A stretch of 62,273 nucleotides of DNA, counting the filler. It is 16 parts of 16 records of this genome, joined end to end, with 100 filler letters (N's around TTAATTAATTAA, not from the genome) between each part and the next. Parts side by side here need not be neighbours in the genome. Positions count along the whole stretch, not along the records: positions 13,582 to 16,191 come from SRR11831586_1976; 15 more parts are not named here. One strand, 5' to 3'. The notes beneath the pieces were generated by a model. That model was not told where the DNA came from. It ran no database searches and was given only the letters and a program-made list of their open reading frames with translations. Below, in pieces: positions 685 to 49,468 of this stretch (the first letter of the stretch is position 1; each line of letters starts with the position of its first letter). Both the position numbers and the translations under genes were made by a program.

Positions 685-1059
685 CACAGCGCAGTTGCTG
701 TGCGCTCCGTTGTTGTTTGTTTTCTGTCGTTGTATCAGGTGTGCGTGTGTGTAACTGTGTGTGTGTTTGTGTATGAGTGAATGAGTGAATGCCGATCTTG
801 TAAATGGATAACATGTGTGGGGTGTGGGGCAAAACAAGAATATCTTGATAAATATAGAGTTGTTTCATTTGTGTCCTTGGAGACCACACAAGCATCACGG
901 AACGCATTATGGAAACTTGCTGTGGTGACGATGGTGATGATGTCTGACAGAATCGTGAACCCCCGAGAGATTGTTCCAACGATCCCTCCCACCACCAAAA
1001 ATTGCTGCATCAAAACGCGAATCAGGGGATCTCTCTGCGGACGCTATTGTATTGACGAA

Positions 1060-1958
1060 ATGCCTCCTAGGGCAATGAAGCAAACCATCGAGCGCAAGGC
1101 TCCATCCGATGCGGATGTCATTGCGCGGAATGCTGTGTGGGACGAGGCTTGTCGCAAAGAGCAGCGGTATCATCGTTTTGTGGAGGAATATGCACCCAAC
1201 CCGAAGACGATGATCTTGATTCCGGAGAAGCCCAACAAGGTAACTCCGGCGTCGGCGGTGCCCACGGAGGAAGAAATGCGGGGACTAGGTACGACAGTGA
1301 GCGGATTGTTGAGGGCATCGTAGCCGAAGTAGTGCCATCGACATTGAGGTGGCGGGGAGTTTAACTTCGCTTCTTCCGTTTTCTTTCTCGCTCCGCTACG
1401 TTCTCTTGTAACGATAATTCTCAAATTTGTGTGGGCGCTGAGTTGAGTCGCAGCTGTTTCCTAAACTGTTTTCCCCTTCCGTCTTGTCCTTGTTTGTTTC
1501 GCTTTCTTCTGACGCATTGTTTCATCCCACAGACGAACTGCGGCACACTCTCTCACGAAGCATCGGATCGCCCAAAGATCGCTATGCGTTCCCACAGACC
1601 ACGTCTCAAGAGGTGGGGTGGCATCCGCCTGTACGTTGCCCTGTGAGCTTGGTGTGTGCGTTCTTTGTGTGTAAGCACCGCATATTGCTGCAATGTTGAG
1701 CCCCTGTCGAGAGTACCATGCGTCTCCAGACTGGCAGCTAACCGCGTGCTTCCTTCAATAGCTTTTCCGTGTGGCATTTCCGTTGCGTTGTTGAGCGTAC
1801 CTGACCGTGTTTGTGTGACATATTTTCTTCGTGTACAGGCCGACTTGAAACGACGATTCTACTACGGAATACAGTCCTCCGAGATGACTCGATACCAAGA
1901 GGCGGTGCTGAGCGGACCACAGACCAAGCCCGCCGGAACGAAGGCCGTCAAGAAGTAG
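1060..1958 (+). CDS. FAM183/CFAP144-like ciliary microtubule inner protein (3 exons)
   Basis: Exons 1060-1288, 1533-1630 and 1839-1958 have GTACG donors, CAG acceptors and CTGAC branch points (1509, 1801). The product contains D...N....E...KE.R, NP......KP, P..RY..PQT..QE.GW and S.MT.Y, collinear with FAM183A as I remember it. Confidence 0.75.
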
Positions 1959-7473: not shown

Positions 7474-7575
7474 NNNNNNNNNNNNNNNNNNNNNNNNNNN
7501 NNNNNNNNNNNNNNNNNTTAATTAATTAANNNNNNNNNNNNNNNNNNNNNNNNNNNNNNNNNNNNNNNNNNNNCA

Positions 7576-8820
<1,245 letters not shown>

Positions 8821-8841
8821 GTTGTCATTTTCCACCCTTAT

Positions 8842-8867
8842 AAAAGGTCCGCTTGCGGGCCTTTTTT
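8842..8867 (+). terminator. Rho-independent terminator after fabF
   Basis: AGGTCCGC-TT-GCGGGCCT hairpin followed by a T tract. Confidence 0.85.
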
Positions 8868-8939
8868 CTTAGCTTTTATTCCGACTTGTTCCGTAGTGAA
8901 CATGCTGCCACACTAACAATTCTCTGATAAGGAGCCGGT

Positions 8940-9749
8940 ATGTTCTTAATTAACGGTCATAAGCAGGAATCGCTGGCAGTAAGCGATCGGGCAACGCAGT
9001 TTGGTGATGGTTGTTTTACCACCGCCAGAGTTATCGACGGTAAAGTCAGTTTGTTATCGGCGCATATCCAGCGACTACAGGATGCTTGTCAGCGGTTGAT
9101 GATTTCCTGTGACTTCTGGCCTCAGCTTGAACAAGAGATGAAAACGCTGGCAGCAGAACAGCAAAATGGTGTGCTGAAAGTCGTGATCAGTCGCGGTAGT
9201 GGCGGGCGAGGGTACAGCACATTGAACAGCGGACCGGCAACGCGGATTCTCTCCGTTACGGCTTATCCTGCACATTACGACCGTTTGCGTAACGAGGGGA
9301 TTACGTTGGCGCTAAGCCCGGTGCGGCTGGGGCGCAATCCTCATCTTGCAGGTATTAAACATCTCAATCGTCTTGAGCAAGTATTGATTCGCTCTCATCT
9401 TGAGCAGACAAACGCTGATGAGGCGCTGGTCCTTGACAGCGAAGGGTGGGTTACGGAATGCTGTGCGGCTAATTTGTTCTGGCGGAAGGGCAACGTAGTT
9501 TATACGCCGCGACTGGATCAGGCAGGTGTTAACGGCATTATGCGACAATTCTGTATCCGTTTGCTGGCACAATCCTCTTATCAGCTTGTCGAAGTGCAAG
9601 CCTCTCTGGAAGAGTCGTTGCAGGCAGATGAGATGGTTATTTGTAATGCGTTAATGCCAGTGATGCCCGTATGTGCCTGTGGCGATGTCTCCTTTTCGTC
9701 AGCAACGTTATATGAATATTTAGCCCCACTTTGTGAGCGCCCGAATTAG
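8940..9749 (+). CDS. pabC: 4-amino-4-deoxychorismate lyase
   Basis: Recognised sequence and synteny with fabF-mltG. Confidence 0.98.
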
Positions 9750-9751
9750 TC

Positions 9752-10775
9752 ATGAAAAAAGTGTTATTGATAATCTTGTTATTGCTGGTGGTACTGGGTA
9801 TCGCCGCTGGTGTGGGCGTCTGGAAGGTTCGCCATCTTGCCGACAGCAAATTGCTTATCAAAGAAGAGACGATATTTACCCTGAAGCCAGGGACCGGACG
9901 TCTGGCGCTCGGTGAACAGCTTTATGCCGATAAGATCATCAATCGTCCACGGGTTTTTCAATGGCTGCTGCGTATCGAACCGGATCTTTCTCACTTTAAA
10001 GCCGGGACTTACCGCTTTACACCGCAGATGACCGTGCGCGAGATGCTGAAATTGCTGGAAAGCGGTAAAGAAGCACAGTTCCCTCTGCGACTGGTAGAAG
10101 GGATGCGTCTGAGCGATTACCTCAAGCAATTGCGTGAGGCCCCGTATATCAAGCATACGCTGAGCGATGATAAGTACGCCACCGTAGCGCAGGCACTTGA
10201 ACTGGAAAACCCGGAGTGGATTGAAGGTTGGTTCTGGCCAGACACCTGGATGTATACCGCCAATACCACCGATGTCGCGTTACTCAAGCGAGCGCACAAG
10301 AAAATGGTGAAAGCGGTCGATAGCGCCTGGGAAGGGCGTGCGGACGGTCTGCCTTATAAAGATAAAAACCAGTTGGTGACGATGGCATCAATTATCGAAA
10401 AAGAAACCGCCGTTGCCAGTGAACGCGATAAGGTTGCCTCAGTATTTATCAACCGTTTACGCATTGGTATGCGCCTGCAGACCGACCCGACCGTGATTTA
10501 CGGGATGGGAGAGCGTTATAATGGCAAACTTTCTCGTGCAGACCTGGAAACGCCGACAGCGTATAACACCTATACCATTACCGGTCTGCCGCCAGGTGCG
10601 ATAGCGACGCCGGGGGCGGATTCGCTGAAGGCTGCTGCGCATCCGGCAAAAACGCCGTATCTCTATTTTGTGGCCGATGGTAAAGGTGGTCACACGTTTA
10701 ATACCAATCTTGCCAGTCATAACAAGTCTGTGCAGGATTATCTGAAAGTGCTTAAAGGAAAAAAATGCGCAGTAA
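9752..10775 (+). CDS. mltG: Endolytic transglycosylase MltG (YceG); +1 A homopolymer frameshift near the 3' end
   Basis: Removing one A at 10754-10756 restores the ending ...KVLKEKNAQ* (340 aa), which overlaps tmk. Confidence 0.96.
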
Positions 10776-11406
10776 GTATATCGTCATTGAGGGGCTGGAA
10801 GGCGCAGGCAAAACTACCGCGCGTAATGTGGTGGTTGAGACGCTCGAGCAACTGGGTATCCGCGACATGGTTTTCACTCGGGAACCTGGCGGTACGCAAC
10901 TTGCCGAAAAGTTAAGAAGCCTGGTGCTGGATATCAAATCGGTAGGCGATGAAGTCATTACCGATAAAGCCGAAGTTCTGATGTTTTATGCCGCGCGCGT
11001 TCAACTGGTAGAAACGGTCATCAAACCAGCTCTGGCTAACGGCACCTGGGTGATTGGCGATCGCCACGATCTCTCCACTCAGGCGTATCAGGGCGGCGGA
11101 CGTGGTATTGACCAACATATGCTGGCAACACTGCGTGATGCTGTTCTCGGGGATTTTCGCCCCGACTTAACGCTCTATCTCGATGTTACCCCGGAAGTTG
11201 GCTTAAAACGCGCGCGTGCGCGCGGCGAGCTGGATCGTATTGAGCAAGAATCTTTCGATTTCTTTAATCGCACCCGCGCCCGCTATCTGGAACTGGCAGC
11301 ACAAGATAAAAGCATTCATACCATTGATGCCACCCAGCCGCTGGAGGCCGTGATGGATGCAATCCGCACTACCGTGACCCACTGGGTGAAGGAGTTGGAC
11401 GCATGA
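10765..11406 (+). CDS. tmk: Thymidylate kinase
   Basis: [11 protein letters not shown]-loop; recognised sequence. Confidence 0.99.
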
Positions 11407-12407
11407 GATGGTATCCATGGTTACGACCTGATTTCGAAAAACTGGTAGCCAGCTATCAGGCCGGAAGAGGTCACCATGCGCTACTCATTCAGGCGTTACC
11501 GGGCATGGGCGATGATGCTTTAATCTACGCCCTGAGCCGTTATTTACTCTGCCAACAACCGCAGGGCCACAAAAGTTGCGGTCACTGTCGTGGATGTCAG
11601 TTGATGCAGGCTGGCACGCATCCCGATTACTACACCCTGGCTCCCGAAAAAGGAAAAAATACGCTGGGCGTTGATGCGGTACGTGAGGTCACCGAAAAGC
11701 TGAATGAGCACGCACGCTTAGGTGGTGCGAAAGTCGTTTGGGTAACCGATGCTGCCTTACTAACCGACGCCGCGGCTAACGCATTGCTGAAAACGCTTGA
11801 AGAGCCACCAGCAGAAACTTGGTTTTTCCTGGCTACCCGCGAGCCTGAACGTTTACTGGCAACATTACGTAGTCGTTGTCGGTTACATTACCTTGCGCCG
11901 CCGCCGGAACAGTACGCCGTGACCTGGCTTTCACGCGAAGTGACAATGTCACAGGATGCATTACTTGCCGCATTGCGCTTAAGCGCCGGTTCGCCTGGCG
12001 CGGCACTGGCGTTGTTTCAGGGAGATAACTGGCAGGCTCGTGAAACATTGTGTCAGGCGTTGGCATATAGCGTGCCATCGGGCGACTGGTATTCGCTGCT
12101 AGCGGCCCTTAATCATGAACAAGCTCCGGCGCGTTTACACTGGCTGGCAACGTTGCTGATGGATGCGCTAAAACGCCATCATGGTGCTGCGCAGGTGACC
12201 AATGTTGATGTGCCGGGCCTGGTCGCCGAACTGGCAAACCATCTTTCTCCCTCGCGCCTGCAGGCTATACTGGGGGATGTTTGCCACATTCGTGAACAGT
12301 TAATGTCTGTTACAGGCATCAACCGCGAGCTTCTCATCACCGATCTTTTACTGCGTATTGAGCATTACCTGCAACCGGGCGTTGTGCTACCGGTTCCTCA
12401 TCTTTAA
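11403..12407 (+). CDS. holB: DNA polymerase III delta' subunit
   Basis: CGHCRGC zinc motif, [11 protein letters not shown] and SRC motif. Confidence 0.99.
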
Positions 12408-12417
12408 GAGAGACATC

Positions 12418-13215
12418 ATGTTTTTAGTCGACTCACACTGCCATCTCGATGGTCTGGATTATGAATCTTTGCATAAGGACGTGGATGACGTTCTGGCGAA
12501 AGCCGCCGCACGCGATGTGAAATTTTGTCTGGCAGTCGCCACAACATTACCGGATTATTTACATATGCGGGATCTGGTAGGCGAACGTGACAACGTCGTA
12601 TTTTCTTGTGGCGTGCATCCACTCAACCAGAATGATCCCTACGATGTAGAAGATTTACGCCGTCTGGCGGCAGAAGAGGGTGTTGTAGCGCTGGGTGAAA
12701 CCGGGCTGGATTATTATTACACGCCGGAAACTAAAGTACGTCAGCAAGAGTCCTTCATCCATCATATCCAGATTGGTCGTGAACTGAACAAGCCGGTTAT
12801 CGTCCATACCCGTGACGCCCGTGCCGATACGCTGGCAATTCTGCGCGAAGAAAAAGTGACGGATTGCGGTGGCGTACTACACTGTTTTACAGAGGACAGA
12901 GAAACGGCGGGTAAATTACTGGATCTCGGATTTTACATCTCCTTTTCCGGCATTGTGACCTTCCGTAATGCGGAGCAACTGCGCGATGCTGCGCGTTATG
13001 TCCCCCTGGATCGGTTACTGGTGGAAACTGACTCACCTTACCTTGCGCCGGTACCGCATCGAGGAAAAGAGAATCAACCTGCGATGGTTCGTGACGTTGC
13101 AGAATACATGGCTGTGTTGAAAGGTGTTGCCGTTGAAGAACTGGCGCAGGTAACCACCGATAACTTCGCCCGTCTGTTTCACATCGACGCTTCCCGCCTT
13201 CAATCCATCCGTTGA
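12418..13215 (+). CDS. ycfH: TatD-family DNase YcfH
   Basis: DSHCH, GETGLD and ETDSPY motifs; true start MFLVDSH at 12418. Confidence 0.97.
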
Positions 13216-13260
13216 ATGAGTTTTTTTAAAGCTCGTAATTAATGGCTAAAACGAGTAAAG

Positions 13261-13286
13261 TTCACCGCCGAAAATTGGGCGGTGAA
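13261..13286 (+). terminator. Hairpin downstream of ycfH
   Basis: TTCACCGCC...GGCGGTGAA inverted repeat. Confidence 0.6.
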
Positions 13287-13289
13287 TAA

Positions 13290-13481
13290 CCACGTTTGAA
13301 ATATTGTGACATATGTTTTGTCAAAATGTGCAACTTCTCCAATGATCTGAAGTTGAAACGTGATAGCCGTCAAACAAATTGGCACTGAATTATTTTACTC
13401 TGTGTAATAAATAAAGGGCGCTTAGATGCCCTGTACACGGCGAGGCTCTCCCCCCTTGCCACGCGTGAGAACGTAAAAAAA
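13290..13481 (+). promoter_or_regulatory. ptsG promoter and 5' leader with CRP site (~13356-13377) and Mlc operator (~13388-13410)
   Basis: Lies after ycfH as in E. coli; contains a CGTGA-N6-TCAAA CRP-like site and a TTATTTTACTCTGTGTAATAA Mlc-like site. Confidence 0.75.
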
Positions 13482-13626
13482 NNNNNNNNNNNNNNNNNNN
13501 NNNNNNNNNNNNNNNNNNNNNNNNNTTAATTAATTAANNNNNNNNNNNNNNNNNNNNNNNNNNNNNNNNNNNNNNNNNNNNAAGCACAGAGCAGGGGCGA
13601 AGGGACTGTTCCCGTCGCGTACGCAC

Positions 13627-15417
13627 CCACTGTGTGAGGGAGGAATCGGATCGCGAACCGTTCGTTGTCTTGTGCGCAGTCATACAGCTATCGCAGAGGG
13701 CTCCATCAGCCTGCATAATGCACTAAGAAGAGCTCCGTACCTCCACAATAGGAGCAATGTCATGGTCCAGCGTAAGGCGCAGCATGCCGGTTGAGTGACT
13801 GACATCTGCGTGGCGAATGTTGCGGTAGGGAATGTCCACCAGCTGGCGTTCGGCCTGCAAGGAGTGAGTATGCATGCGGCCTCATCACAACGGTGGAGTG
13901 CGCTGCGTACGGGATTGGAGAGCGAACCCAGCCACATCGCAATGGTGCTGCGCCCAAAATCTACACACACAGAGCCGGACAGTGAGCACAGAGGCGGCAG
14001 TGTGGTACTGACAGTGCGCAATTACCCACGAACGGCTGTGCAGCCCACTCGCCCTTGGTCTGCCAGTCCGCCCCCGGGTAACTCGCGGCGGAGCACACAG
14101 ACACCCTTCGATTTGAAGCTCCACACGCTACACCACACCCCTTGAGCCGCGAGCCATTGAACACGTGCTCATGCACCGTACCTTCGCACAGACCCTGCCG
14201 CGTGGTTGAGCTTGTCCAGGAACTCGCGCATGCGGGCCAGAAGGCTCTCCTCCGAGTCGCCTGGCGTCACACTCAGCATCTCGTTGGCAAACTTGGCGTT
14301 CCCCGAGAGCATTGCCGTCAGCTGTGCAGCCCCGCCCTTGAAGGGCGACACCAGACGCAGAAGAAGCTCCACTATCTGCGCTTGCACCTCATAGTCTGCA
14401 GTGCACAGTTACGTTGCGCACAATGTAGTCACGCAAGGAGAAACAAACGGTATAAACGATATGCAACAGCACCACTGCCGCGCGTTATTATCCACTCGTA
14501 CCTCCTGCGATCAGCAACAGTGGGCCCAGCTGGGAGACCTTGGGCAGGATACCGTGTGCGTCTTTCAGCACAAATTTGCACAGGTCAAAGCCACCATCCG
14601 CCACACAGAAGAGGAAGGTCAGCGTCTCCGCGGCGGCACGGCGCACGCGAACATCGAGAGCCAACTCTGTTGCGGACATGCGGTTAGACGACTCAACGCA
14701 CGGCAAGTGCGGCACGTACCCAGCACCACGTCGCAGAGAGCTTCGCACAAGCTTTTCCCAATCTCCAGCTTTCCTTTGTCCTCAGCAATGCATTCTGTTA
14801 AAGTGGAGACTTTGTTGATGACGGAGAACGCGTAATAGCTGGTTTGCGAGTCCACCCCCTGATCGAGAATGAGCTTGATCGGGGCCTTCAGCTGCAGTTG
14901 CGCGCGTTAGCGCCACAGAGAGGAGGTGGAACTGCGCCGTACCGCATCACATAATCCGGATTTCACCAGCTGTCGAAGTGCATCAACATTGCCGGTGATG
15001 AGCGCCTCCAGGGTGCTCAGGAGCGTATCAACGTTTGCAATGTCCTGACTTTCACTCTAGTAGCTCAGTGTATGAGGCGCAACCTCGTATCAAGAAGATA
15101 AATTCATGGTGATGGTAGAATGCGACTTGAAAACAACTTAGAAGACTGGAAGTACATGAAATCGTACCTGAGTTAGAAGGTCGTTGAGGATATTGGCGGC
15201 CTTTTTGGAAAGCGGATCTTTTTTGGGGCTCATCGCCAATCCCCTGCCTAGCAGTTTCTGGTTATTGTATTCTGCCAACCGCGAGAACATTTTGTCCGGC
15301 GGTGACTGCACCACTTCCTCTATCTATTACCATGAGAAACACCAGTGAGCAGGTTAATCTGAATTGTCAGTTCCGTAATCCGCTCATTCGCGACGCCATT
15401 CGTACCTGAATACCCAT
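13627..15417 (-). CDS. SYCP2-like ARM + PH (Spt16M-like) domain protein (meiotic axis family); multi-exon, 3' partial, one probable homopolymer frameshift at 14071-14075
   Basis: Ten exons with GT donors splice to MGIQIEEVV...LLLIAGDYEVQAQIVELLLRL...MREFLDKLNHAAGSVRSVWSF...PFVDFGRSTIAMWL...LVDIPYRNI...LRLTL. This is collinear with SYCP2 AGDYDLQV.IVEALCR / CR.FLN.VN / VFTFP / WIDFN. Confidence 0.7.
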
Positions 15418-15779
15418 GCTCAACGATTACAATAGTGCAGGAGAGTAGGAATGACTACAATCTCACTTGCAAACGAATGGAGCGTTCAGAAGAGAAGAGC
15501 GAGAGACATGAAAACATTTACCAAATCGCATTATTGATTCACGTCCTCTGACAAGCAGGGGACCACACGTGACCATTGCTATGCATGCATCAGGCCGCAA
15601 CAAGCGAATGTCCATAGACGAAACAATAACCACCCCCACACCGCGCAAGCCTGAAGACGTCGTCCTCCCACGCTCAACATATAAATAAATATACAGACCA
15701 GTGGACATAGTGCTGAAAGACACAATCCACGAACCGAATACGTAGTCACACGCCGTAAACCACTGCGGTCATACCGACC

Positions 15780-16191
15780 TCAGCTCAAGCCTGCCCACCG
15801 CTGACAAACACCAATCAGCTGCTGCCGATCGATCGGCTTCGATACATAGTCCACACACCCAGCGTCAATACACTTTTGCCTGTCCGTCTCCAGGGCATGC
15901 GCGGTCAATGCGATGATGGGCCGCGCATAGCTGCTGGCCCTGAGCTTCATCGTGGCCTCGTAGCCGTCCATCACAGGCATCTGCATGTCCATCAGCACCA
16001 GCGTGTGCGGCGGGTCGGCCTGCATCGCCCGCTCCACGCCCACCAGCCCGTTCTCCGCCAGCTCCACCCGCGCCCCCGCACGGCCCAGGAAGGCGGTCAG
16101 GATGCGCTGGTTGTCCTCGCCGTCCTCCACAAGAAGCACCGCGACGCCCTCCAGCGGCTTGGCCTTCTTCGCGGGCGCGGGCGCGCAGCAG
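15780..16191 (-). CDS. C-terminal receiver domain of a hybrid histidine kinase / response regulator; 5' partial
   Basis: LLVED acidic pocket, LMDMQMPVMDG phospho-acceptor Asp, IIALTAHA and SKP are all present, preceded by an Ala/Pro/Lys linker. Confidence 0.93.
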
Positions 16192-37226: not shown

Positions 37227-38319
37227 CTCCATATGAATGCCCTTATCGGTGTGCAACTTGATACGATCGTCCACGCTGCCCATGAACGGAATGCACACAC
37301 CGCTTTCAAGCACTATTCTCTGATACAGACCCGCGCTACTCGCAAACAAAAGAATGGGCCACCACGCACACGAACAAGGAAACAACCGACAATATGGGTT
37401 TCGAACACCTGAAAACTACTCTGAGAAAAAAGTTTCAGTGGCAAACAGAGAGACACCGTGGTCAAGATAGGACTCCAAAACAGTGCACACGTTGACAAGC
37501 AACAAAACGTACCTTTGAGGGCTCACCAGGTGATAACACATGCTTGTAGCCCCAGCACTCTCGCCTGCGATGGTCACTTGACTCGGATCTCCACCAAAAT
37601 GCGATATGTACAGCTGTACCCAAAGCAGCGCTGCTTGCTGATCTTGAAATCCATAGTTGCCTGTGGTGTTCATGCTGCTTTCCCGACGCAGATTATCCGA
37701 AGCATAGAAACCGAATACTCCCACCCTAATTTGCTGTTAACGACGGGCGATTCCAAAACTAGATCAGAACACACCTGTAATTAAATGTTATTACAGTGGC
37801 GTTGATCTTCTTAGACAGACGAGATCCATCCAGCAGTTCGCTTTCTAGGCGAGGAATGGCGGAATAAAACCCTCCACCGGGGATCCACACAAACACGGGA
37901 TGGACAGCGCTACAAAGAAATCAGGTCAGAAACATGATAAACTACGTGGGTACGTACTCATCGTCGGGAGTCCAGATATTGAGGTACAAGCAATCTTCAT
38001 CAGTTATAATTTTGGTTGTCGATTCAGCCTGCTGGGGACAAAACGGCCGCACATAGTGCGCAGCAAATGGGGACTCTGGAAGCGAGTGCAGAGACTACAT
38101 ACAGAATTAGAACCAGCCCATAGTGCACATTTCTAAGAATACCTTTGGAGGGGCCCACCGAAGGGAATCAACAGGGGGCTGAGCAAAAGGCACCCCAAGA
38201 TAGCGGCGCACACCATCCCCTACAATACCTGAGACAATTCCCAAAGGAAAATTCACCGAAATGGACCAAGCACATTGGACCAAGAAGAACGCCACAAACG
38301 CAACGACTAGCGTCTTCAT
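37227..38319 (-). CDS. Type-B carboxylesterase (secreted), multi-exon, 3' partial
   Basis: Signal peptide; YLGVPFAQPP..LRW.PP, EDCLYLNIWTP, WIPGGGF, NYR.G.FGF, GNYG..DQ, FGGDP..VTIAGESAG (nucleophile elbow at 37551-37565). Confidence 0.95.
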
Positions 38320-39935
38320 GTCCTCTTCAACAGGTGTGAGTATCAGTGTAGCATGATAGAAAGCAAGAACAGGAATTACAGTTTGGCAAACATCGAAATT
38401 ATCGAACCGTGAGCCTGCCAGGGTGTATCTTCCTGTCAGACAGGTATCGATATCGATATCGATTTTTTACGATATATTTTTCTGCCCCCTAGATACTTCT
38501 ATACGGAATGTGCAGCTTATCAAGAGTCTAATCGATCGTAGACATACATCGCTATTGGGCTATTGATAGTCTGTGTTCCGCATAACAGGGCATAGATATC
38601 GAGGAGCCCCATCTAGCACGGTCAACGTGGGTTGATAGACGCGGAGCTACATCAAAGAAAGCCGTAGTCGCAAACAATGTGTGTGTCGTGGTTGCACCTG
38701 TCCCTGTTGCCTACGTTCAGAGACACGTACACGGCATCCGCCCAGATCTATTCAGTTATACAAAAGTTAGGTGTATAGACGCGGAACTTGACTAAAAGTA
38801 TCAGCTCCTATACCGTGTCGAGTCGTAGTTTCTGCTGGCACGTGTGCCTTTCAGTCATCACATAAATGTTATCTCATGCGCGGGGAGAAGTACAGGTATG
38901 TTCACGAAAAATTAACACCATGACAAGAGGCAACGTCATTATAGACTCATTACCTTAGTTGCCCCCGTATCGGCTCAATTTGATATGGTATACGAATCCA
39001 TTATGACCTGTATTATGGCAACGTCATTCGATACGATCCTAAATATAATGCGCTGCAGCACTGTGCATACTGGTGCTTAGTAAGAAGTACATGCGCAGTG
39101 CCTCTAACCGTGTGTATAGACACAAAGCAAACGACTCCCTACACAGGATGCTCGAATCCGCAGTCTGCGTACCTAGTATCAAGGACCGATGATTCTTAGT
39201 AGTGAGAGCCCAGACACTTACATGACCCTGCAACATGAATGTATATACGATCAAAGTTTGGTAAAATTTTAATATATGCATACATCAAAGGTGTAGTGTG
39301 CCCATGGCTTCTTGAGTTTGCAAGTCTCAGACAACGACAATTGCCACGTATTTTCACAGCCTGTCGTTCGTAAAGTAACATAAAACATGTGAAGTGAACT
39401 TGCTCATGGCAGTCATGCCAATATCGTTTGTAGGTATATTCTCGGCTGCTGCGGGGTGCGTTAGTGTACTGAATTAGCAATCGGAGTACGCCGTTGAGGT
39501 TCATAGCGTGCGGTTGTATCGGTGGGCGGTNNNNNNNNNNNNNNNNNNNNNNNNNNNNNNNNNNNNNNNNNNNNTTAATTAATTAANNNNNNNNNNNNNN
39601 NNNNNNNNNNNNNNNNNNNNNNNNNNNNNNACAGGGTGGAGAACCCACCACCACTTGTGATAACACCTACAACGGCACATCAAGAACACATTCAGACTTG
39701 ATAGAGGGGCCGCACTCCGCCACATAAACAAGACATCAGGCACGTTTCAAACAATACCCAACTCACAACGACACCCATGCCCTGCACTCACACAACCACT
39801 CCAACGACAACTGGGGTCTGCCCGGTCGCGACTGCACACGTGTACACAGGCGGCATAAATACACAAGACAGATTAATCGCGCGCATACGCCCATTAATCG
39901 AACGATACATCGCACACACACACACAGCCGCATAC

Positions 39936-42267
39936 CGCCGTAATACGAATCACACCCCATCTCGCCCACATCCGTCCACCACTGCCCGTCAACGCTCACA
40001 GGCACCGCAAATCGGGACAGCTGCGTGCCACCCACCGCTGTGGCGTAGGGTGAGGATGCAGGGAACACAGGGTGGAAAGGCTGACAGAAAGACAGGCTGT
40101 CCCGTGCGGCTTCCGCTGCGACACCGTCATCGCCGCTTGCAAACAGCACCGTGATGCCCCGCGCACCCACTACAGAGAGCAAGCAACCCCCACACACAGC
40201 GATGAAGTCAGCCTATCAATATATCATGCGATTGGTGCATCTCGAGCAGACGCCGCGAGAAAAGTCGAAGGGAAAAAGAGTCTCTCAGATGTGAGACAAG
40301 CGCAGGATCAGGCCGATACAGCGCAACACACAACAACAACATACATTTGATCAGCTCCACGTTGATACGGTCAGTGTATTCGATGGGCAGCGTGGACTCC
40401 ATGTCCAGATAGCTGACCGAATGCACCAGGGGTACATCGCTCGTGCTGGAGACGGCGGTAACCCACTGCAGAAACCCTTCCTGTTGGTTACCGTGTGTGT
40501 CGGGGTACGGGCTGTATTCGTTGACCGACCAGAATACGGTTGGGACATTGGGTGCGATACCCAAAAGGTATTGGATATCCAGAGATGCTTCACCGCCTGT
40601 AATGCCGACGCACGCACAAACACATACACAGATAGACACGCGCCCACGTGTACACAGAAGATGAGAATGTGAGGATGGGCGCGCAAAGACAGAGTATTGA
40701 CGTACGGAGTACGAAATCAGGACACAAACACCAACACACACAACAAACAGAGGATATACTACAACAAGAATGAAGCCCGTCCCTCATCCCTCACGGCCCG
40801 TACCTGGGTTGGACTGGTCGTTGGGCCCGATGACTGTGATAGGGCTATCGTTGGGGTACACACCCAGCAAGTTATAGAAGAGACGCAGGTCCGTCTCTGA
40901 GTAGTACTGCTGTAGAAATTCCGCCACCGACTGCGAGTTACGCGCACTGAGGCCACGGGTGCCGGGCGGAACACCTACACACACGCGTGCACACACACAC
41001 ATCAGTATGTATATGATTGGAGAGAGTGTATATATACATATATTAAGAACGGAAGTAGAAAAGGATATAGAGGCGCACGGTGTCAACTGAGGTCAATCGC
41101 ACGGAACACACACACACACACATACATGACACACGACACACCACATACGCACACATACATACCGTACAGAGTCTTGAGTGACAGCGGCGTGGTCCACGTA
41201 CTGGCCAGCGTGGGCACACGAGACCCGTCATCCGCCACACTGTACCCAAACACACTACTCGTCCCATCCGCAAACACAGCCTGTGCGCTTGTGTACAGCG
41301 GAACAAAGTTGGGTGTGTTGCTCACCAGTGTCGCACAGAGCACGTTCACCATGCGGAACCCGGGCAGCGTCGCGTTCAGGGAGGCGCACAGGGCAGCCTG
41401 GGGCGCAGGGGCGGTGGAGCACTGCACACAGCGCATATCCACAGCGGTGCCCGAAGCGACGGCCGTTGGGAACCCAGTCGCCTCTACGTGCACGTTGAAG
41501 CGGGTGATGGGCGCGGAGCCGGCATCGGAGCAGGGCGTGCCTGCGTCTGCGGTGAACGAGCCGTCGGTGCAGCGCGGGACGAAGGAGACCAGCACCTGCG
41601 CGTCCATGGGGCGTGCGGAGGGCACCAAAGGGCTGCTGGGAGAGGCATGCAGGGACTGGGAGAGCGCCGCTACCCCAGCAACATCCACGGACGGGCGCGC
41701 GGAGGTCGGTCGAACGCGGGGCAGGTGTGTGAGGTCCCAGATAAAGTCGATGTGTGCGGCCAGCGTGTCTGGGACGGTGATGCGGTGCGGGGTGCGGATG
41801 ACGCGTGCAACGGTGTCGCGGTGTACGTAGTCGTAGAGGGTGACCTGCAGCAGACGCTGTGCACTGCCCACAGGGATGTGCGCCACCACAAAATGTTTGG
41901 AGGGAGTGAAGGAGAGCGAGGTAGCGCCACCTTCCGTGAGCCATGTGCTCACAGCACGTACGGAGGATGGCGAAGGAGCCGTCATGTTCTGCACTTGATC
42001 GTGCATCAAGAACTGACCGTAAGAGGTTGAGCTGGGGTTGTTGACTCGCCAAAAGATGTTTTCCAACGTGTCAGTGTTTTGTTGACGGATGGCAATGGTG
42101 ATCGGAATGACGACGGAAGCGGCGGCCGGGCCCTGTTGATCCCATTCTCGAGATCTGTGTGGCGGGTCATGAGGGGAGTGAATGAAAACGCGAGTGGATT
42201 GTGCTGCCACGCAGACCGCGACTGCGATGGCGAGTACTAGGACAAGTGTGATGGATGGCGTTATCAT
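39936..42267 (-). CDS. Tripeptidyl-peptidase I / sedolisin (S53) with an inserted domain; 3' partial
   Basis: Signal peptide, pro-domain (P.S..YG.FL), NPGGEASLDIQY (catalytic E/D), VHSVSY, RGITVLFASGDDG and FPASSPY.TAVGGT. Confidence 0.95.
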
Positions 42268-42627
42268 CGCAAGCAAACGAAAGACCGATGCACAGAGATT
42301 TAGCCACTAAAATCAACGCAAAGGCCTGCTGAAAGCCAAATACCAACTTGAATGCAGATCTGACAGGCAAAATAAAAATTCTGACAAACTGTTTCCGAAA
42401 GTCCGGTTGGAAAATTGGAAAAAAGGATTCATGTTTTGTAGATTTTTGGGGCTCCTTTTTGTTCCCATCTCATGTAATCGGGTGTTGTACGGTGCACTGG
42501 TAATGATATTTATTTCTCGAGTCGCACGTGTTGCTCTGTCCAATGTGCGATATGGCATGTGCGTTTGTCTGGGGCTGTTCGCACTAACTTTTCGGTGTAG
42601 CTCAACAGCATAAAACCGTAAGAGAGT

Positions 42628-43174: not shown

Positions 43175-43838
43175 TATCATGCAGCAAACGGTGCAACATT
43201 GCCGTGTCTCGTTGCTCTAAAAGCCCCAGGCGTTGTTGTAACCAGTCGACCAGTTTTATGTCATCTGCCACTGCCAGAGTCGTCAGCAATGTCATGGCTC
43301 GTTCGCGTAAAGCTTGCAGTTGATGTTGGTCTGCCGTTGCATCACTTTTCGCCGGTTGTTGTATTAATGTTGCTAATTGATAGCAATAGACCATCACCGC
43401 CTGCCCCAGATTGAGCGAAGGATAATCCGCCACCATCGGCACACCAGTAAGAACGTCAGCCAACGCTAACTCTTCGTTAGTCAACCCGGAATCTTCGCGA
43501 CCAAACACCAGCGCGGCATGGCTCATCCATGAAGATTTTTCCTCTAACAGCGGCACCAGTTCAACTGGCGTGGCGTAGTAATGATATTTCGCCCGACTGC
43601 GCGCAGTGGTGGCGACAGTGAAATCGACATCGTGTAACGATTCAGCCAATGTCGGGAAAACTTTAATATTATCAATAATATCACCAGATCCATGTGCGAC
43701 CCAGCGGGTGGCTGGCTCCAGGTGTGCCTGACTATCGACAATCCGCAGATCGCTAAACCCCATCGTTTTCATTGCCCGCGCCGCTGCCCCAATATTTTCT
43801 GCTCTGGCGGGTGCGACCAGAATAATCGTTATACGCAT
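43175..43838 (-). CDS. yjtD: SPOUT tRNA/rRNA methyltransferase YjtD (LasT), 3' partial
   Basis: ENIGAAARAM, FGRED.GL and SLNL motifs; synteny. Confidence 0.96.
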
Positions 43839-44237
43839 ATTGCCACTCTTCTTGATCAAATAACCGCGAACCGGGTGATCACTGTCAACTTATTACGCGG
43901 TGCGAATTTACAAATTCTTAACGTAAGTCGCAGAAAAAGCCCTTTACTTAGCTTAAAAAAGGCTAAACTATTTCCTGACTGTACTAACGGTTGAGTTGTT
44001 AAAAAATGCTACATATCCTTCTGTTTACTTAGGATAATTTTATAAAAAATAAATCTCGACAATTGGATTCACCACGTTTATTAGTTGTATGATGCAACTA
44101 GTTGGATTATTAAAATAATGTGACGAAAGCTAGCATTTAGATACGATGATTTCATCAAACTGTTAACGTGCTACAATTGAACTTGATATATGTCAACGAA
44201 GCGTAGTTTTATTGGGTGTCCGGCCCCTCTTAGCCTG

Positions 44238-44378
44238 TTATGTTGCTGTTAAAATGGTTAGGATGACAGCCGTTTTTGACACTGTCGGGTCCTGAGGGAA
44301 AGTACCCACGACCAAGCTAATGATGTTGTTGACGTTGATGGAAAGTGCATCAAGAACGCAATTACGTACTTTAGTCAT
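44238..44378 (-). CDS. yjjY: Small protein YjjY (46 aa)
   Basis: MTKVRNCVLDALSIN...ILTAT*, divergent from arcA as in K-12. Confidence 0.75.
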   Translation of the reverse strand: MTKVRNCVLDALSINVNNIISLVVGTFPQDPTVSKTAVILTILTAT

Positions 44379-44473
44379 GTTACGCCGATCATGTTAATTT
44401 GCAGCATGCATCAGGCAGGTCAGGGACTTTTGTACTTCCTGTTTCGATTTAGTTGGCAATTTAGGTAGCAAAC

Positions 44474-45190
44474 ATGCAGACCCCGCACATTCTTATCGTT
44501 GAAGACGAGTTGGTAACACGCAACACGTTGAAAAGTATTTTCGAAGCGGAAGGCTATGATGTTTTCGAAGCGACAGATGGCGCGGAAATGCATCAGATCC
44601 TCTCTGAATATGACATCAACCTGGTGATCATGGATATCAATCTGCCGGGTAAGAACGGTCTTCTGTTAGCGCGTGAACTGCGCGAGCAGGCGAATGTTGC
44701 GTTGATGTTCCTGACTGGCCGTGACAACGAAGTCGATAAAATTCTCGGCCTCGAAATCGGTGCAGATGACTACATCACCAAACCGTTCAACCCGCGTGAA
44801 CTGACGATTCGTGCACGCAACCTACTGTCCCGTACCATGAATCTGGGTACTGTCAGCGAAGAACGTCGTAGCGTTGAAAGCTACAAGTTCAATGGTTGGG
44901 AACTGGACATCAACAGCCGTTCGTTGATCGGCCCTGATGGCGAGCAGTACAAGCTGCCGCGCAGCGAGTTCCGCGCCATGCTTCACTTCTGTGAAAACCC
45001 AGGCAAAATTCAGTCCCGTGCTGAACTGCTGAAGAAAATGACCGGCCGTGAGCTGAAACCGCACGACCGTACTGTAGACGTGACGATCCGCCGTATTCGT
45101 AAACATTTCGAATCTACGCCGGATACGCCGGAAATCATCGCCACCATTCACGGTGAAGGTTATCGCTTCTGCGGTGATCTGGAAGATTAA
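44474..45190 (+). CDS. arcA: Response regulator ArcA
   Basis: Recognised sequence. Confidence 0.99.
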
Positions 45191-45207
45191 TCGGCTTTAC
45201 CACCGTC

Positions 45208-45244
45208 AAAAAAAACGGCGCTTTTTAGCGCCGTTTTTATTTTT
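45208..45244. terminator. Bidirectional terminator between arcA and creD
   Basis: A tract, CGGCGCT-loop-AGCGCCG hairpin, T tract. Confidence 0.85.
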
Positions 45245-45249
45245 CAACC

Positions 45250-46602
45250 TTATTTCCAGATACGTAACTCATCGTCCGTTGTAACTTCTTTACTGGCTTT
45301 CATTTTCGGCAGTGAAAACGCATACCAGTCGATATTACGGGTCACAAACATCATGCCGGCCAGCGCCACCACCAGCACACTGGTTCCCAACAACAGCGCG
45401 CTATCGGCAGAGTTGAGCAGTCCCCACATCACACCATCCAGCAACAACAGCGCGAGGGTAAACAACATGCTGTTGCACCAACCTTTCAATACCGCTTGCA
45501 AATAAATACCGTTCATTATCGCCCCAATCAGACTGGCGATTATCCATGCCACGGTAAAACCGGTATGTTCAGAAAGCGCCAGCAAGAGCAAATAAAACAT
45601 CACCAATGAAAGCCCCACCAGCAAATATTGCATTGGGTGTAAACGTTGCGCGGTGAGCGTTTCAAAAACAAAGAACGCCATAAAAGTCAGTGCAATCAGC
45701 AGAATGGCGTACTTAGTCGCCCGGTCAGTTAATTGGTATTGATCGGCTGGCGTCGTTACTGCGACGCTAAACGCCGGGAAGTTTTCCCAGCCGGTATCAT
45801 TGCCTGAAGCAAAACGCTCACCGAGATTATTAGCAAACCAGCTGCTTTGCCAGTGCGCCTGAAAACCTGACTCGCTAACTTCCCGTTTGGCTGGTAGAAA
45901 ATCACCTAAAAAACTGGGATGCGGCCAGTTGCTGGTTAAGGTCATTTCGCTATTACGCCCGCCAGGCACCACAGAAAGATCGCCGGTACCGCTTAAATTC
46001 AGGGCCATATTCAGCTTCAGGTTCTGCTTCCGCCAGTCCCCTTCAGGTAAAGGGATATGCACGCCCTGCCCGCCTTGCTCTAACCCGGTGCCGGGTTCAA
46101 TGGTCAGCGCCGTTCCGTTAACTTCAGGCGCTTTCACCACACCAATACCACGCGCATCCCCGACGCTAATCACAATAAATGGCTTGCCTAAGGTGATATT
46201 TGGCGCGTTGAGTTCGCTAAGACGCGAAACATCGAAATCGGCTTTTAACGTTAAATCACTGTGCCAGACCTGACCGGTATAAATCCCTATCTTGCGTTCT
46301 TCCACGTTCTGATTGCCATCAACCATCAATGACTCAGGTAACCAAAAATGGATAAAACTTCGTTTCCGCTCCACGGTTTTATCCTCTTCCTGCACCGTAT
46401 AAAGCTCGGTCACAGGAATAGCGATGAGCGGCCCAACGAGTTTTTGCGGCCCGCTGGTACTTTGGCGAATCGCATCTTCCACATCGCTACGGTAATCAGC
46501 ACGTTCGACAATCACCTGCCGAATCAGCATTATCGGAATTAACAACAGCAATACTGCACCAAACAGGCTAGTCATTTTCCAGAACAGGGGGGATTTCAAC
46601 AT
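45250..46602 (-). CDS. creD: Inner membrane protein CreD
   Basis: Recognised sequence and operon order. Confidence 0.98.
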   Translation of the reverse strand: MLKSPLFWKMTSLFGAVLLLLIPIMLIRQVIVERADYRSDVEDAIRQSTSGPQKLVGPLIAIPVTELYTVQEEDKTVERKRSFIHFWLPESLMVDGNQNVEERKIGIYTGQVWHSDLTLKADFDVSRLSELNAPNITLGKPFIVISVGDARGIGVVKAPEVNGTALTIEPGTGLEQGGQGVHIPLPEGDWRKQNLKLNMALNLSGTGDLSVVPGGRNSEMTLTSNWPHPSFLGDFLPAKREVSESGFQAHWQSSWFANNLGERFASGNDTGWENFPAFSVAVTTPADQYQLTDRATKYAILLIALTFMAFFVFETLTAQRLHPMQYLLVGLSLVMFYLLLLALSEHTGFTVAWIIASLIGAIMNGIYLQAVLKGWCNSMLFTLALLLLDGVMWGLLNSADSALLLGTSVLVVALAGMMFVTRNIDWYAFSLPKMKASKEVTTDDELRIWK

Positions 46603-46659
46603 AGTCTTCTCCTTTGCAATGGCAGCAGGATACGAAGACTATGTGGGAAGAATTTGAAG

Positions 46660-48084
46660 CTATGTGAAGTGACGGTGAAGTCGAAGCGAGGCCAGCACGC
46701 CACCTTCCTGCACGTTGCGCAACGTGACTTCGCCGTTAAACAAACGGGCGACCTCACTGACGAACGCCAACCCCAGACCGCTGCTTTTTTGCCCATTTGC
46801 ACGAGGCAAAGAGTAAAAGCGTTCAAAAATACGTGAAAGCGCGTAGTCAGGAATACCACTACCGGTATCCAGCACCTTAAGCGTGACGTGTTCCTGATCC
46901 ACTTCGGCGCTTAGCGTGATGCAACCGCTCTCGGGGGTAAAATCGATGGCGTTATCCAGTAAATTTCCCAGCGCCTGCTCCAGTAACGCCGGTTCAGCAG
47001 CAACGTTAACCTCGGTGGGCGTAACATGCAGAGTGATTTTTTTTTCTGCCAACTGCACGGTGCGCGCTTCGCTGACGCGGCGGAATAATGCCGCCACATC
47101 AACAGCAGTCAGAACGACTTCCTGACGATTCTCCAGTCTTGCCTGGCGTAGTAACGTTTCTACCAATGCCTGCATACGCGCATTTTGCGTCAGAATGTTG
47201 TCAGTAAAACGAGCCACCACTTCCGGCGGCGGACCTTCGCGTAAAATTTCCGCCGCTCCACGAATCGCCGCCAGTGGGCTTTTTAGCTCATGAGTTAATG
47301 CGTAAACATACTGCTCAATATAGTTTTTCCCTTCCAGCTTCACGCGCATACTTTCCAGCGCCTGCGCGAGTTTACGCAACTCGCTACTACCGAGATCGGG
47401 GAGAGGAACGGGCTTATTGTCAGTGACGGAATCAGCATAGCGAGTGAGCCGGGCAATAGAGCGGTTGATCCACCAAACCATGCCTGCGCCAATCACCAGT
47501 GCAATCCCCAACAAAATGGCGCTGGCCCATAAAATTCGCCGCTCGCTACGCTTAATGACCGGAGCCATCGCCGCGTTCGGTTTGCCTACGCTCAAAACGC
47601 CAATAAGCCGCGAGCCGTCCATAATCGGTGCGGCAACATACATCACAGAACTTTCGGGATCGGCAGGATTTTGCAACGTGCTGCGCGCACCATACTGACC
47701 ACGCAACGTTAGCCAGACGTCATTCCAGCGCGAATAATCCTGTCCAACGGCTTTATTTGCCGAATCGAACAATACTTTGCCCTGCGCATCGGTCATATAG
47801 ACATGATATTCATTGCGCACTTTGTTAATGCCACCGATATTGGCGCGAAACGGGGGATGTTGTAGCTGATTAAACGCCTGCGCCAGTTGCCCATGCGTTG
47901 GGTCCCCAGAGAGCAAATCGGGACGCGCCAGCTCCGCCAGCAACGTTGCGGTGTCGATCAACGTCCCCTCCGTTGCTCTTCGCACGCCCGGTTTAACTTC
48001 TTTGACAAAAATGGCCAGTACGAACCAGGCTGCCACCGCCACCAGTAAAAAATAGCCCAGCAACAACCGCATGCCGATACGCAT
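46660..48084 (-). CDS. creC: Sensor histidine kinase CreC (Pro77, creC510-type allele)
   Basis: THELKSPL H-box; residue 77 is Pro. Confidence 0.98.
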   Translation of the reverse strand: MRIGMRLLLGYFLLVAVAAWFVLAIFVKEVKPGVRRATEGTLIDTATLLAELARPDLLSGDPTHGQLAQAFNQLQHPPFRANIGGINKVRNEYHVYMTDAQGKVLFDSANKAVGQDYSRWNDVWLTLRGQYGARSTLQNPADPESSVMYVAAPIMDGSRLIGVLSVGKPNAAMAPVIKRSERRILWASAILLGIALVIGAGMVWWINRSIARLTRYADSVTDNKPVPLPDLGSSELRKLAQALESMRVKLEGKNYIEQYVYALTHELKSPLAAIRGAAEILREGPPPEVVARFTDNILTQNARMQALVETLLRQARLENRQEVVLTAVDVAALFRRVSEARTVQLAEKKITLHVTPTEVNVAAEPALLEQALGNLLDNAIDFTPESGCITLSAEVDQEHVTLKVLDTGSGIPDYALSRIFERFYSLPRANGQKSSGLGLAFVSEVARLFNGEVTLRNVQEGGVLASLRLHRHFT

Positions 48085-48773: not shown

Positions 48774-48785
48774 AAATCGCCTCTG

Positions 48786-49259: not shown

Positions 49260-49468
49260 ATTGTTACCATTTTTATCTATTACACGAGCAATTAGTTCGT
49301 CACGGTAAATAACATATTGATTAAGAACAAAATCTCAATACTTTTATTTCCGTCAAGCCCTAAAACATACTCTACTAAGAAAAAACACTGAATGCTAAAA
49401 CAGCAAAAAATGCTATTATCCAATTACCTGATGTCAGGTGCTCGTTGTTGAAAGGATGAGGATATTTT

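What the first reader, a model, noticed from the sequence alone, without database searches (positions are those of the whole stretch)
13627..15417. SYCP2/Red1-type ARM-PH chromosome-axis protein hidden in ten short exons
Seen: no ORF in the track captures it, but splicing gives an ARM-like region ending LIAGDYEVQAQIVELLLRL...REFLDKLN, followed by a beta-rich PH-like region (VWSF...FVDFGRSTI...LVDIPYRNI...LRLTL...FAIRF). One base must be removed (C5 run at 14071-14075, or the C3 run at 14104-14106), consistent with the homopolymer errors elsewhere. Established: this ARM+PH module is the N-terminal domain of meiotic axis proteins (SYCP2, Red1), and related proteins were repurposed as kinetoplastid kinetochore proteins KKT17/18. 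Inference: evidence of cryptic meiosis or a synaptonemal complex in this protist, or of an axis-derived kinetochore component. This is the strongest novel candidate in the window.
Basis: partly seen in the sequence, partly recalled or inferred. Interest (0 to 1): 0.75.

Follow-up and report, generated by a model that had tools for sequence, protein, structure and literature searches.

The report
SYCP2-type meiotic axis gene fragment
A short eukaryotic contig carries the first ten exons of a gene related to the meiotic chromosome-axis protein SYCP2, a family already known across eukaryotes, so it is real but fairly ordinary.

Summary
Contig 13582-16191 carries a ten-exon gene on the minus strand (15417 to 13623). 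Eight of 9 introns start with GTACG, and exon 7 is one base out of phase.

A 1000-nt metagenome contig (L001) encodes a relative with four of the same intron positions and phases. Exons 5 and 6 are fused there, which confirms that splice.

A profile of exon 6 plus its three database relatives hits mouse SYCP2 N-terminal region (PDB 5iwz) at E = 3.8e-6. The match covers the last armadillo helices up to the first strand of the PH-like domain. Two relatives hit it singly. The window's own exons do not, and Pfam finds nothing.

The PH-like part could not be tested, because the tools refuse spliced products. The closure motif and coiled coil lie beyond the contig end.

The frameshift is probably a homopolymer sequencing error. 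Three E. coli K-12 contigs in the same window differ from references only by 3 single-base homopolymer indels in 21,092 nt.

SYCP2-type proteins are reported in all eukaryotic supergroups (PMC8131943), so this is a new member of a known kind.

The parts
15406..15417 (-). Exon 1 (ATG + 3 codons), followed by a GTACG donor.
   Evidence: An in-frame TAA lies four codons upstream of the ATG (read). No relative supports this exon.
15168..15323 (-). Exon 2 (52 codons), start of the helical N-terminal region.
   Evidence: TAG acceptor, GTACG donor, open frame. No relative. No Pfam hit.
14943..15056 (-). Exon 3 (38 codons). An acceptor 12 nt further in is also possible.
   Evidence: No relative. No Pfam hit.
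14720..14891 (-). Exon 4 (172 nt, ends in phase 1).
   Evidence: Its 3' intron has the same position and phase in L001.
14502..14666 (-). Exon 5, with a HEAT/ARM-like D-x-RVRRAAA-x-L helix motif.
   Evidence: Weak hits to designed HEAT-like repeat proteins through this motif (E 0.17-4.1). Contiguous with the exon 6 equivalent in P0003/L001.
14182..14395 (-). Exon 6, the last helices of the ARM-like domain; this part links the gene to SYCP2.
   Evidence: phmmer hits P0001 (3.7e-13), P0002 (2.0e-4) and P0003 (9.3e-4) among 1.84 billion representatives. Profile A2 hits 5iwz_A residues 194-287 at E = 3.8e-6.
14026..14127 (-). Exon 7 (102 nt, one base too many): first strands of the PH-like region, read in two frames.
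   Evidence: L001's 104-nt equivalent matches the first frame at the exon's start and the second frame at its end.
14068..14109 (-). Stretch within which the frame change must lie.
   Evidence: leaving out one base here scores 148-157 against L001. C5 run 149, C3 run 148, best 157 at 14093-14094. As assembled the score is 18.
13911..13960 (-). Exon 8 (50 nt), with the DFGR...MWLG motif shared with L001.
   Evidence: The intron before it has the same position and phase in L001.
13741..13854 (-). Exon 9 (38 codons), with the YRNI motif shared with L001.
   Evidence: No PDB hit alone.
13623..13687 (-). Exon 10, ending at a GTACG donor (13622-13618). The contig ends 41 nt later, so the gene is cut off.

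Best explanation
This is the 5' part (about 387 codons in ten exons) of a SYCP2-type chromosome-axis core gene. It comes from an unidentified, intron-rich eukaryote whose contigs are mixed with E. coli K-12 contigs in this assembly.

By homology with SYCP2 and Red1, the product would begin with a folded domain. That domain would be an armadillo-like helical part of about 275 residues packed against a PH (Spt16M-like) beta part of about 110 residues. The closure motif that binds the HORMA protein Hop1, and the coiled coil that builds the axis filament, would lie downstream. Both are beyond the contig end.

Shown: the exon chain, its conservation in a relative, and sequence homology of the ARM-end/junction region to SYCP2.

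Inferred: the PH fold, the missing C-terminal parts, and the meiotic role. Also inferred: the one-base frame error in exon 7 is a homopolymer sequencing error, not a mutation.
For: Gene model:
- 8 of 9 introns start GTACG, and all 9 end TAG or CAG.
- 9 of 9 minus-strand GTACG words are at predicted donors.

Conservation:
- L001 shares the intron position and phase after exons 4, 6 and 7. The intron after exon 8 is in the same phase, about two codons displaced. L001 has exons 5 and 6 fused.
- The joined alignment scores 342 against a shuffle maximum of 53. The part after exon 6 scores 127 against a maximum of 48.

Family:
- Profile A2 hits 5iwz_A (SYCP2) at E = 3.8e-6, 30.1 bits, as one stretch (profile 2-96 = chain 194-287). 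The next natural hit is at E = 0.45; a designed SNARE protein comes in between at E = 0.21.
- P0002 alone gives E = 1.1e-4. P0003 alone gives E = 0.041. Both have 5iwz_A as top hit.
- In a Foldseek search with a low-confidence model, 5iwz is the only row with probability 0.80 (rmsd 3.3 over 88 columns, 30% identity). All other listed rows have probability 0.12 or less.
- The conserved D-Y of the GDYE motif is at residues 207-208 of the model and 215-216 of the 401-residue chain, which holds a 1-390 construct. The model ends at 387, which fits a complete N-terminal region.

Frameshift:
- 3 of 3 differences between 21,092 nt of E. coli contigs in this window and K-12 references are single-base homopolymer indels.
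- Exons 8-10 stay open and conserved.
Against: - No Pfam family at E <= 10 for any of 9 exon pieces, and no SYCP2 family for P0001-P0003.
- 7 of my 10 PDB searches did not find 5iwz: exon 6, exon 5, exon 9, the L001 exon-7 equivalent, P0001, profile A5 (exon 5 region) and profile A6 (exon 6 + P0001). The window reaches SYCP2 only through P0002 and P0003.
- The top hit is a designed repeat protein. It scores E = 1.2e-11 from 7 stretches of about 10 bits each, which shows that helical-repeat likeness alone can score.
- The structure model is poor (mean pLDDT 55.6), and Foldseek gave no match at E <= 0.001.
- The ESM Atlas gave only generic ARM/HEAT/TPR clusters, all under 0.9.
- The PH fold, closure motif, coiled coil and expression are untested.
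- As assembled, the frame is broken.
Confidence: 0.72

Rival explanations
1. It is a SYCP2-type gene that really is frameshifted: a decaying pseudogene in a lineage that is losing the axis or meiosis.
For: The assembled sequence has the extra base. Read as assembled, the frame runs into a stop in exon 9. No reads could be laid.
Against: The only errors measurable in the same window are of this kind: 3 of 3 are homopolymer indels, about 1 per 7 kb. There is a single defect in about 1.16 kb. Exons 8-10 are open and still conserved with L001.
Confidence: 0.1
2. There is no frameshift. Intron 6 uses an acceptor 22 nt further in (AAG), giving a shorter exon 7 that is in phase.
For: Phase arithmetic works, and the reading is open.
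Against: It scores 131 against L001, versus 148-157 for the one-base readings. It drops the VWSFKSKGV stretch, which matches L001's VVSCKSLGV and follows a TAG acceptor at the position and phase of L001's intron. An A at -3 occurs in none of the other 9 acceptors.
Confidence: 0.07
3. It is an unrelated ARM/HEAT-repeat protein. The 5iwz match would reflect general helical-repeat likeness.
For: A designed repeat protein outscored 5iwz. Exon 5 matches designed HEAT-like repeats. Atlas neighbours are generic ARM/HEAT families. There are no Pfam SYCP2 hits.
Against: 5iwz is hit as one 95-column stretch with shared motifs, for example GDYE-Q--VE-L-R and FL--LN. It is top hit for two relatives singly, and no other natural ARM protein is better than E = 0.45. 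The match sits at the same distance from the N-terminus. It is followed by conserved, less helix-prone sequence.
Confidence: 0.08
4. It is a SYCP2-type paralogue used in mitosis at kinetochores, as KKT17/18 are in kinetoplastids.
For: KKT17/18 belong to the same family, and duplications occur in Diplonemida (PMC8131943).
Against: Nothing here shows a second copy or mitotic expression. The gene has 9 spliceosomal introns in 1.8 kb. That it is therefore unlike kinetoplastid genes is my own knowledge, not a call.
Confidence: 0.03

Closest known systems
Mouse SYCP2 N-terminal region (PDB 5IWZ; ARLD + Spt16M-like domain; Feng et al. 2017, PMC5498334, passages read)
   Same: There is significant profile-to-sequence similarity over chain residues 194-287. 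The conserved GDYE motif sits at the same distance from the N-terminus. The region is about 390 residues in both. A helical part comes first, then a part that is less helix-prone.
   Different: Identity is about 30% over 88 columns for relative P0003 (Foldseek alignment). The window's own exons give no direct hit. The PH-like part is not shown to match. The rest of the protein is unknown here.
Red1 / Rec10 / ASY3 axis core proteins (West et al. 2019, as summarised in PMC12871700; abstract and passages read)
   Same: The N-terminal architecture expected from the literature is ARM + PH, followed directly by a closure motif.
   Different: The closure motif and coiled coil lie beyond the contig end. 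Seed-plant ASY3 lacks the ARM-PH domain.
KKT17/KKT18 of kinetoplastids (Tromer et al. 2021, PMC8131943; passages and section 11 read)
   Same: They belong to the same SYCP2-type family (ARM-PH-coiled coil).
   Different: They are kinetochore proteins of mitotic trypanosomes. Nothing here points to such a role, and the intron-rich gene structure argues against a kinetoplastid source (own knowledge).
Generic ARM/HEAT repeat proteins
   Same: Exon 5 carries a D-x-RVRRAAA-x-L motif that matches designed HEAT-like repeat proteins. The P0003 model is all-helical. Atlas neighbours carry Arm/HEAT families.
   Different: Those matches are not significant (E >= 0.17; Atlas scores under 0.9). Only SYCP2 gives a long single-stretch match.

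Membership tests
SYCP2-type axis core proteins (criteria of Tromer et al. 2021, PMC8131943) | [quoted passage not shown] | tested here: inconclusive
   Met for the last ARM helices up to the first strand: A2 vs 5iwz_A E = 3.8e-6, chain 194-287; P0002 E = 1.1e-4. Not shown for the body of the PH domain: exon 9 and the L001 exon-7 equivalent gave 0 PDB hits. The window reaches SYCP2 only through its relatives.
SYCP2-type axis core proteins | N-terminal armadillo-like helical repeat domain. | tested here: inconclusive
   The P0003 model has 8 helices and no strand, but mean pLDDT is 55.6. A HEAT-like motif is in exon 5. Atlas neighbours are ARM/HEAT, under 0.9. Exons 2-4 are untested beyond open frames.
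SYCP2-type axis core proteins | PH (Spt16M-like) beta domain packed on the ARM part. | not testable with these tools
Indirect evidence only: conservation with L001 (score 127 vs shuffle max 48), and a lower share of helix-forming residues (0.38 vs 0.49).
SYCP2-type axis core proteins | HORMAD-binding closure motif after the N-terminal domain. | not testable with these tools
   The contig ends 41 nt after exon 10. No longer contig was found.
SYCP2-type axis core proteins | C-terminal coiled coil that forms tetramers and filaments. | not testable with these tools
   It lies beyond the contig end. No genome is held for this window.
Pfam SYCP2 N-terminal domain families (names and accessions recalled, not from a call) | A hit to the family model above its cut-off. 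| tested here: not met
   0 families at E <= 10 for 9 exon pieces. No SYCP2 family for P0001-P0003. Pieces of 20-136 residues are a weak test.
Meiosis-specific genes | Expression restricted to meiotic or sexual stages. | not testable with these tools
   No sequencing run was listed for the contig.

The most novel reading that the evidence does not exclude
The source organism and its three environmental relatives (P0001-P0003) may form a lineage in which no SYCP2-type protein has been recognised. Tromer et al. 2021 list Amoebozoa as unclear. They list Apusozoa, Haptophyta, Cryptophyta, Rhodophyta and Glaucophyta as having HOP1 but no detectable SYCP2-type gene. In that case this divergent clade, which Pfam did not detect in the pieces tested, would fill a gap in the distribution of the synaptonemal-complex axis. 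It would also mark meiotic capacity in a protist not known to be sexual.
Probability: 0.2. Interest if true: 0.5.

Novelty: new member of a known kind. Interest (0 to 1): 0.3.

Why it matters
SYCP2-type proteins are hard to detect by sequence, and their presence tracks the presence of synaptonemal complexes (PMC8131943, section 11). A clear member from a poorly sampled, intron-rich lineage, with three environmental relatives, adds a bridging sequence for homology searches. It is also one item of a meiotic toolkit for that organism. One gene fragment does not show that meiosis occurs, and the family's wide distribution is already in print.

The case also shows that this window mixes E. coli K-12 contigs with eukaryotic contigs. 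Single-base homopolymer errors occur there at roughly 1 per 7 kb, which matters for every frameshift seen in it.

Tried and rejected
- Pfam on single exons gave nothing.
I did not pursue it by another route.
- Word-based protein searches for longer relatives found none, with exon 6 or with profile A2. The search at near lengths returned only the same three fragments.
- Sequencing runs: none was listed, and no RNA holder was listed.
- No whole genome is held for the window. The nearest held genome, G001 (4.8 Mb, one contig), has no match to the contig.
- The genome-contig scan matched a pattern in 22 stretches, but none was confirmed.
- The metagenome scan found only L001, the 1000-nt contig that encodes P0003 itself.
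- A family search on L001's record was not possible. The accession I gave there was recalled.
- Earlier findings of this scan: nothing by place, sequence or words.
- MAFFT could not align the two halves of exon 7 to L001 usefully, so no profile was made for that exon.
- ESM Atlas: only generic helical-repeat neighbours for P0003. Nothing useful for a 479-residue open frame of another contig.
- A literature search for a GTACG donor consensus, to place the organism, gave nothing usable. The organism remains unidentified.
- Rejected: that the gene comes from a kinetoplastid (9 spliceosomal introns).
- Rejected: that the contig is bacterial (multi-exon structure with conserved intron positions).

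Full report
WHAT THE WINDOW IS

The window is not one piece of genome. It is 16 contigs of 2.0-8.5 kb joined by 100-nt linkers (N44, TTAATTAATTAA, N44).

Several contigs are E. coli K-12:
- 7574-13481 is fabF-pabC-yceG-tmk-holB-ycfH.
- 43175-51638 is the arcA-cre-robA region.
- 55554-62273 is rimP-nusA-infB-rbfA-truB-rpsO.

Each covers 100% of its query at 100.0% identity to K-12 laboratory strains. The three Rfam hits of the window are enterobacterial leaders and an sRNA. No whole genome is held for the window. The nearest held genome lacks the contig of interest.

Other contigs are eukaryotic. The finding lies on one of these, 13582-16191 (2610 nt, GC 0.56).

THE OBSERVATION

- The 9 introns are 51-111 nt long.
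- 8 of 9 begin GTACG, and intron 7 begins GTAATT.
- All 9 end TAG or CAG.

The contig has 9 GTACG words on the minus strand, and every one is at a predicted donor. The plus strand has 2. The ninth, at 13622, suggests that exon 10 ends at 13623 rather than 13627. Only 41 nt of contig follow, so the gene is cut off.

Exon 7 is 102 nt where the flanking phases need 101 or 104. Read as assembled, translation runs out of frame into a stop in exon 9.

RELATIVES

Exon 6 (70 residues) was searched with phmmer against 1.84 billion representative proteins. It found 3 proteins at E <= 0.001:
- P0001: 95 aa, 67% identity, E = 3.7e-13.
- P0002: 105 aa, E = 2.0e-4.
- P0003: 136 aa, E = 9.3e-4.

All three are short open frames called on contigs of 618-1000 nt from three different sources. 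Word-based searches found no longer relative and no further member.

P0003 lies on a 1000-nt metagenome contig, L001. I read L001's exons from its sequence and joined them in a script. L001 has the equivalents of exons 5 and 6 in one exon, which confirms that splice. It has introns at the same position and phase as the window after exons 4, 6 and 7. The intron after exon 8 is in the same phase, about two codons displaced.

The joined products align with 86 identities in 253 columns. The score is 342, against 34.5 +/- 5.1 (max 53) in 300 shuffles. The part downstream of exon 6 alone scores 127, against 22.9 +/- 4.4 (max 48).

The gene model from exon 4 to exon 9 is therefore well supported. Exons 1-3 rest on signals and open frames only.

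THE FRAMESHIFT

L001's equivalent of exon 7 is 104 nt. Its product matches the window's first frame at the start (VVSCKSLGV against VWSFKSKGV). It matches the second frame at the end (KPWI-DFGR against QPFV-DFGR).

I left out each of the 102 bases in turn and aligned the result to L001:
- 4 deletions give a stop.
- Deletions between 14109 and 14068 score 148-157, so the site cannot be fixed.
- The C5 run scores 149, the C3 run 148, and the best is 157 at 14093-14094.
- An in-phase reading through an AAG acceptor 22 nt further in scores 131.
- The sequence as assembled scores 18.

Is a sequencing error plausible? I compared the three E. coli contigs above (21,092 nt) base by base with K-12 records. 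They show 3 differences, and all 3 are single-base length changes in homopolymer runs:
- At 10756, A3 in the window against A2 in the reference.
- At 49386, A6 against A7.
- At 55651, T6 against T7.

There are no substitutions. It makes one such error in a 1.16-kb coding sequence unremarkable but not proven. The measured errors are in A/T runs, while the candidate here is a G/C run.

WHAT THE PROTEIN IS

Single pieces gave nothing:
- No Pfam family at E <= 10 for 9 exon pieces.
- No SYCP2 hit in the PDB for exon 6, exon 5 or exon 9.

A profile of exon 6 with P0001-P0003 (A2, 103 positions) gave 11 PDB sequences at E <= 10:
- The first is a designed circular repeat protein (E = 1.2e-11). Its score is the sum of 7 repeats of about 10 bits each, with individual E-values of 5.8-9.7. 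I treat it as an artefact of repetition.
- The second is 5iwz_A, synaptonemal complex protein 2, at E = 3.8e-6 and 30.1 bits. It is one stretch, profile 2-96 against chain 194-287. Shared motifs include gdyevqahvlelllrl over GDYELQVGIVEALCRM, and rlfldklnraaGd over RIFLNLVNGILGD.
- The next hit (E = 0.21) is a designed SNARE protein. The next natural protein is at E = 0.45.

Searched singly, P0002 gives 5iwz_A as top hit (E = 1.1e-4, residues 10-101 against 202-292). So does P0003 (E = 0.041). P0001 does not. Neither does the profile of exon 6 with P0001 only, nor the profile of the exon 5 region. In all, 3 of my 10 PDB searches found 5iwz and 7 did not. The window is tied to SYCP2 through P0002 and P0003, the 'hopping' logic that Tromer et al. 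themselves used.

The geometry fits:
- The D-Y of the motif is at residues 207-208 of the window model and at 215-216 of the 401-residue chain. That chain holds the mouse 1-390 construct.
- The window model ends at residue 387, at the contig end.
- Past the exon 6/7 junction the similarity continues: G-S-V-R-S-V-W-S-F in the window against G-D-K-R-R-V-Y-T-F in the chain.

An AlphaFold model of P0003 with the four-row alignment is all-helical (8 helices) but poor, with mean pLDDT 55.6. Foldseek found no match at E <= 0.001. However, 5iwz (rank 5, E = 2.4) is the only listed row with a high probability: 0.80, TM by query 0.46, rmsd 3.3 over 88 columns, 30% identity. All other rows have probability 0.12 or less and rmsd above 10.

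Exon 5 carries a D-x-RVRRAAA-x-L motif that weakly matches designed HEAT-like repeat proteins (E 0.17-4.1). The ESM Atlas places P0003 among generic ARM/HEAT/TPR clusters, all under 0.9 and none of them SYCP2.

The helical-repeat nature and the SYCP2 link of its last part are therefore supported. The PH (Spt16M-like) fold of exons 7-10 is not shown. It is conserved in L001 and has fewer helix-forming residues than the first part (0.38 against 0.49). The spliced product could not be sent to any profile or folding tool.

COMPARISON WITH WHAT IS KNOWN

Feng et al. 2017 (PMC5498334, passages read) describe the mouse SYCP2 N-terminal region as two subdomains. One is an armadillo-repeat-like domain of fourteen helices. 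The other is a Spt16M-like (PH-type) domain of ten strands and two helices.

The introduction of Mendez Diaz et al. 2026 (PMC12871700, abstract and passages read) gives the architecture of axis core proteins, in order:
- an N-terminal ARM-PH domain;
- a closure motif for the HORMA protein;
- a disordered linker;
- a C-terminal coiled coil that forms tetramers and filaments.

Tromer et al. [quoted passage not shown] They give as their best criteria a significant similarity to the last ARM repeats plus the PH domain, together with a C-terminal coiled coil. They report no detection in some lineages: ciliates, Amoebozoa (unclear), Apusozoa, haptophytes, cryptophytes, red algae and glaucophytes.

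Here the first criterion is met in part. The second cannot be tested. I did not look at that paper's supplementary tables, which may list the lineage concerned.

VERDICT

This is a real gene, the 5' part of a SYCP2-type axis core gene, and a new member of a known kind. Its presence is one item of a meiotic toolkit, not evidence of cryptic meiosis by itself. The organism is unidentified.

Another non-E. coli contig of the window encodes pieces matching FAM183. From my own knowledge, not from a call, that is a ciliary protein. If that contig is from the same organism, the organism has a flagellated stage.

Interest is modest. It would rise if the lineage turned out to be one of those where the family has not been found.

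Noticed in passing
window 1-62273: The window is a chain of 16 contigs (2.0-8.5 kb) joined by N44 + TTAATTAATTAA + N44 linkers. E. coli K-12 contigs are mixed with eukaryotic ones, so neighbouring 'genes' across linkers are not neighbours in any genome.
   Followed up: partly
window 10756, 49386, 55651: Three E. coli contigs (21,092 nt) differ from K-12 references only by three single-base homopolymer length changes (A3 vs A2, A6 vs A7, T6 vs T7). There are no substitutions. This is a homopolymer-type sequencing error signature of about 1 per 7 kb.
   Followed up: yes
window 15783-16190, minus strand: Just upstream on the same strand, an open frame cut by the contig end encodes a response-regulator receiver domain (PF00072, E = 1.9e-25). 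Its stop is about 360 nt before the ATG of the SYCP2-type gene. It is probably the C-terminus of a hybrid histidine kinase or response regulator.
   Followed up: partly
window 13582-16191, minus strand: There is a very strict donor consensus: 8 of 9 introns start GTACG, and all 9 GTACG words on that strand are at predicted donors. The read-through tails of P0001 and P0002 (R-T-Y) would fit the same donor at the same place. L001 has GTAC at that intron but other donors elsewhere.
   Followed up: partly
window 781-1320 and 1442-1696, plus strand: Two open frames on another non-E. coli contig match consecutive parts of Pfam FAM183 (E = 4.2e-6 and 6.3e-6, both just under the curated cut-off). From my own knowledge FAM183 is a ciliary protein, which hints at a flagellated organism.
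   Followed up: no
window 41083-42306 (minus); 37419-37736 and 38110-38466 (minus): Other non-E. coli contigs encode a pro-kumamolisin activation domain (E = 2e-34) and pieces of a multi-exon carboxylesterase (E = 1.2e-24 and 2.2e-7). Most other open frames of 80 aa or more on these contigs have no Pfam hit: 85 of the 89 scanned.
   Followed up: no
P0002, residues 88-101: The tail of P0002 after the conserved FL-KLN-AAG motif (R-T-Y-A-F-V-C...) aligns with SYCP2's R-R-V-Y-T-F-P-C. That relative may have no intron at the exon 6/7 position, and the tail may be real coding sequence rather than intron read-through.
   Followed up: no
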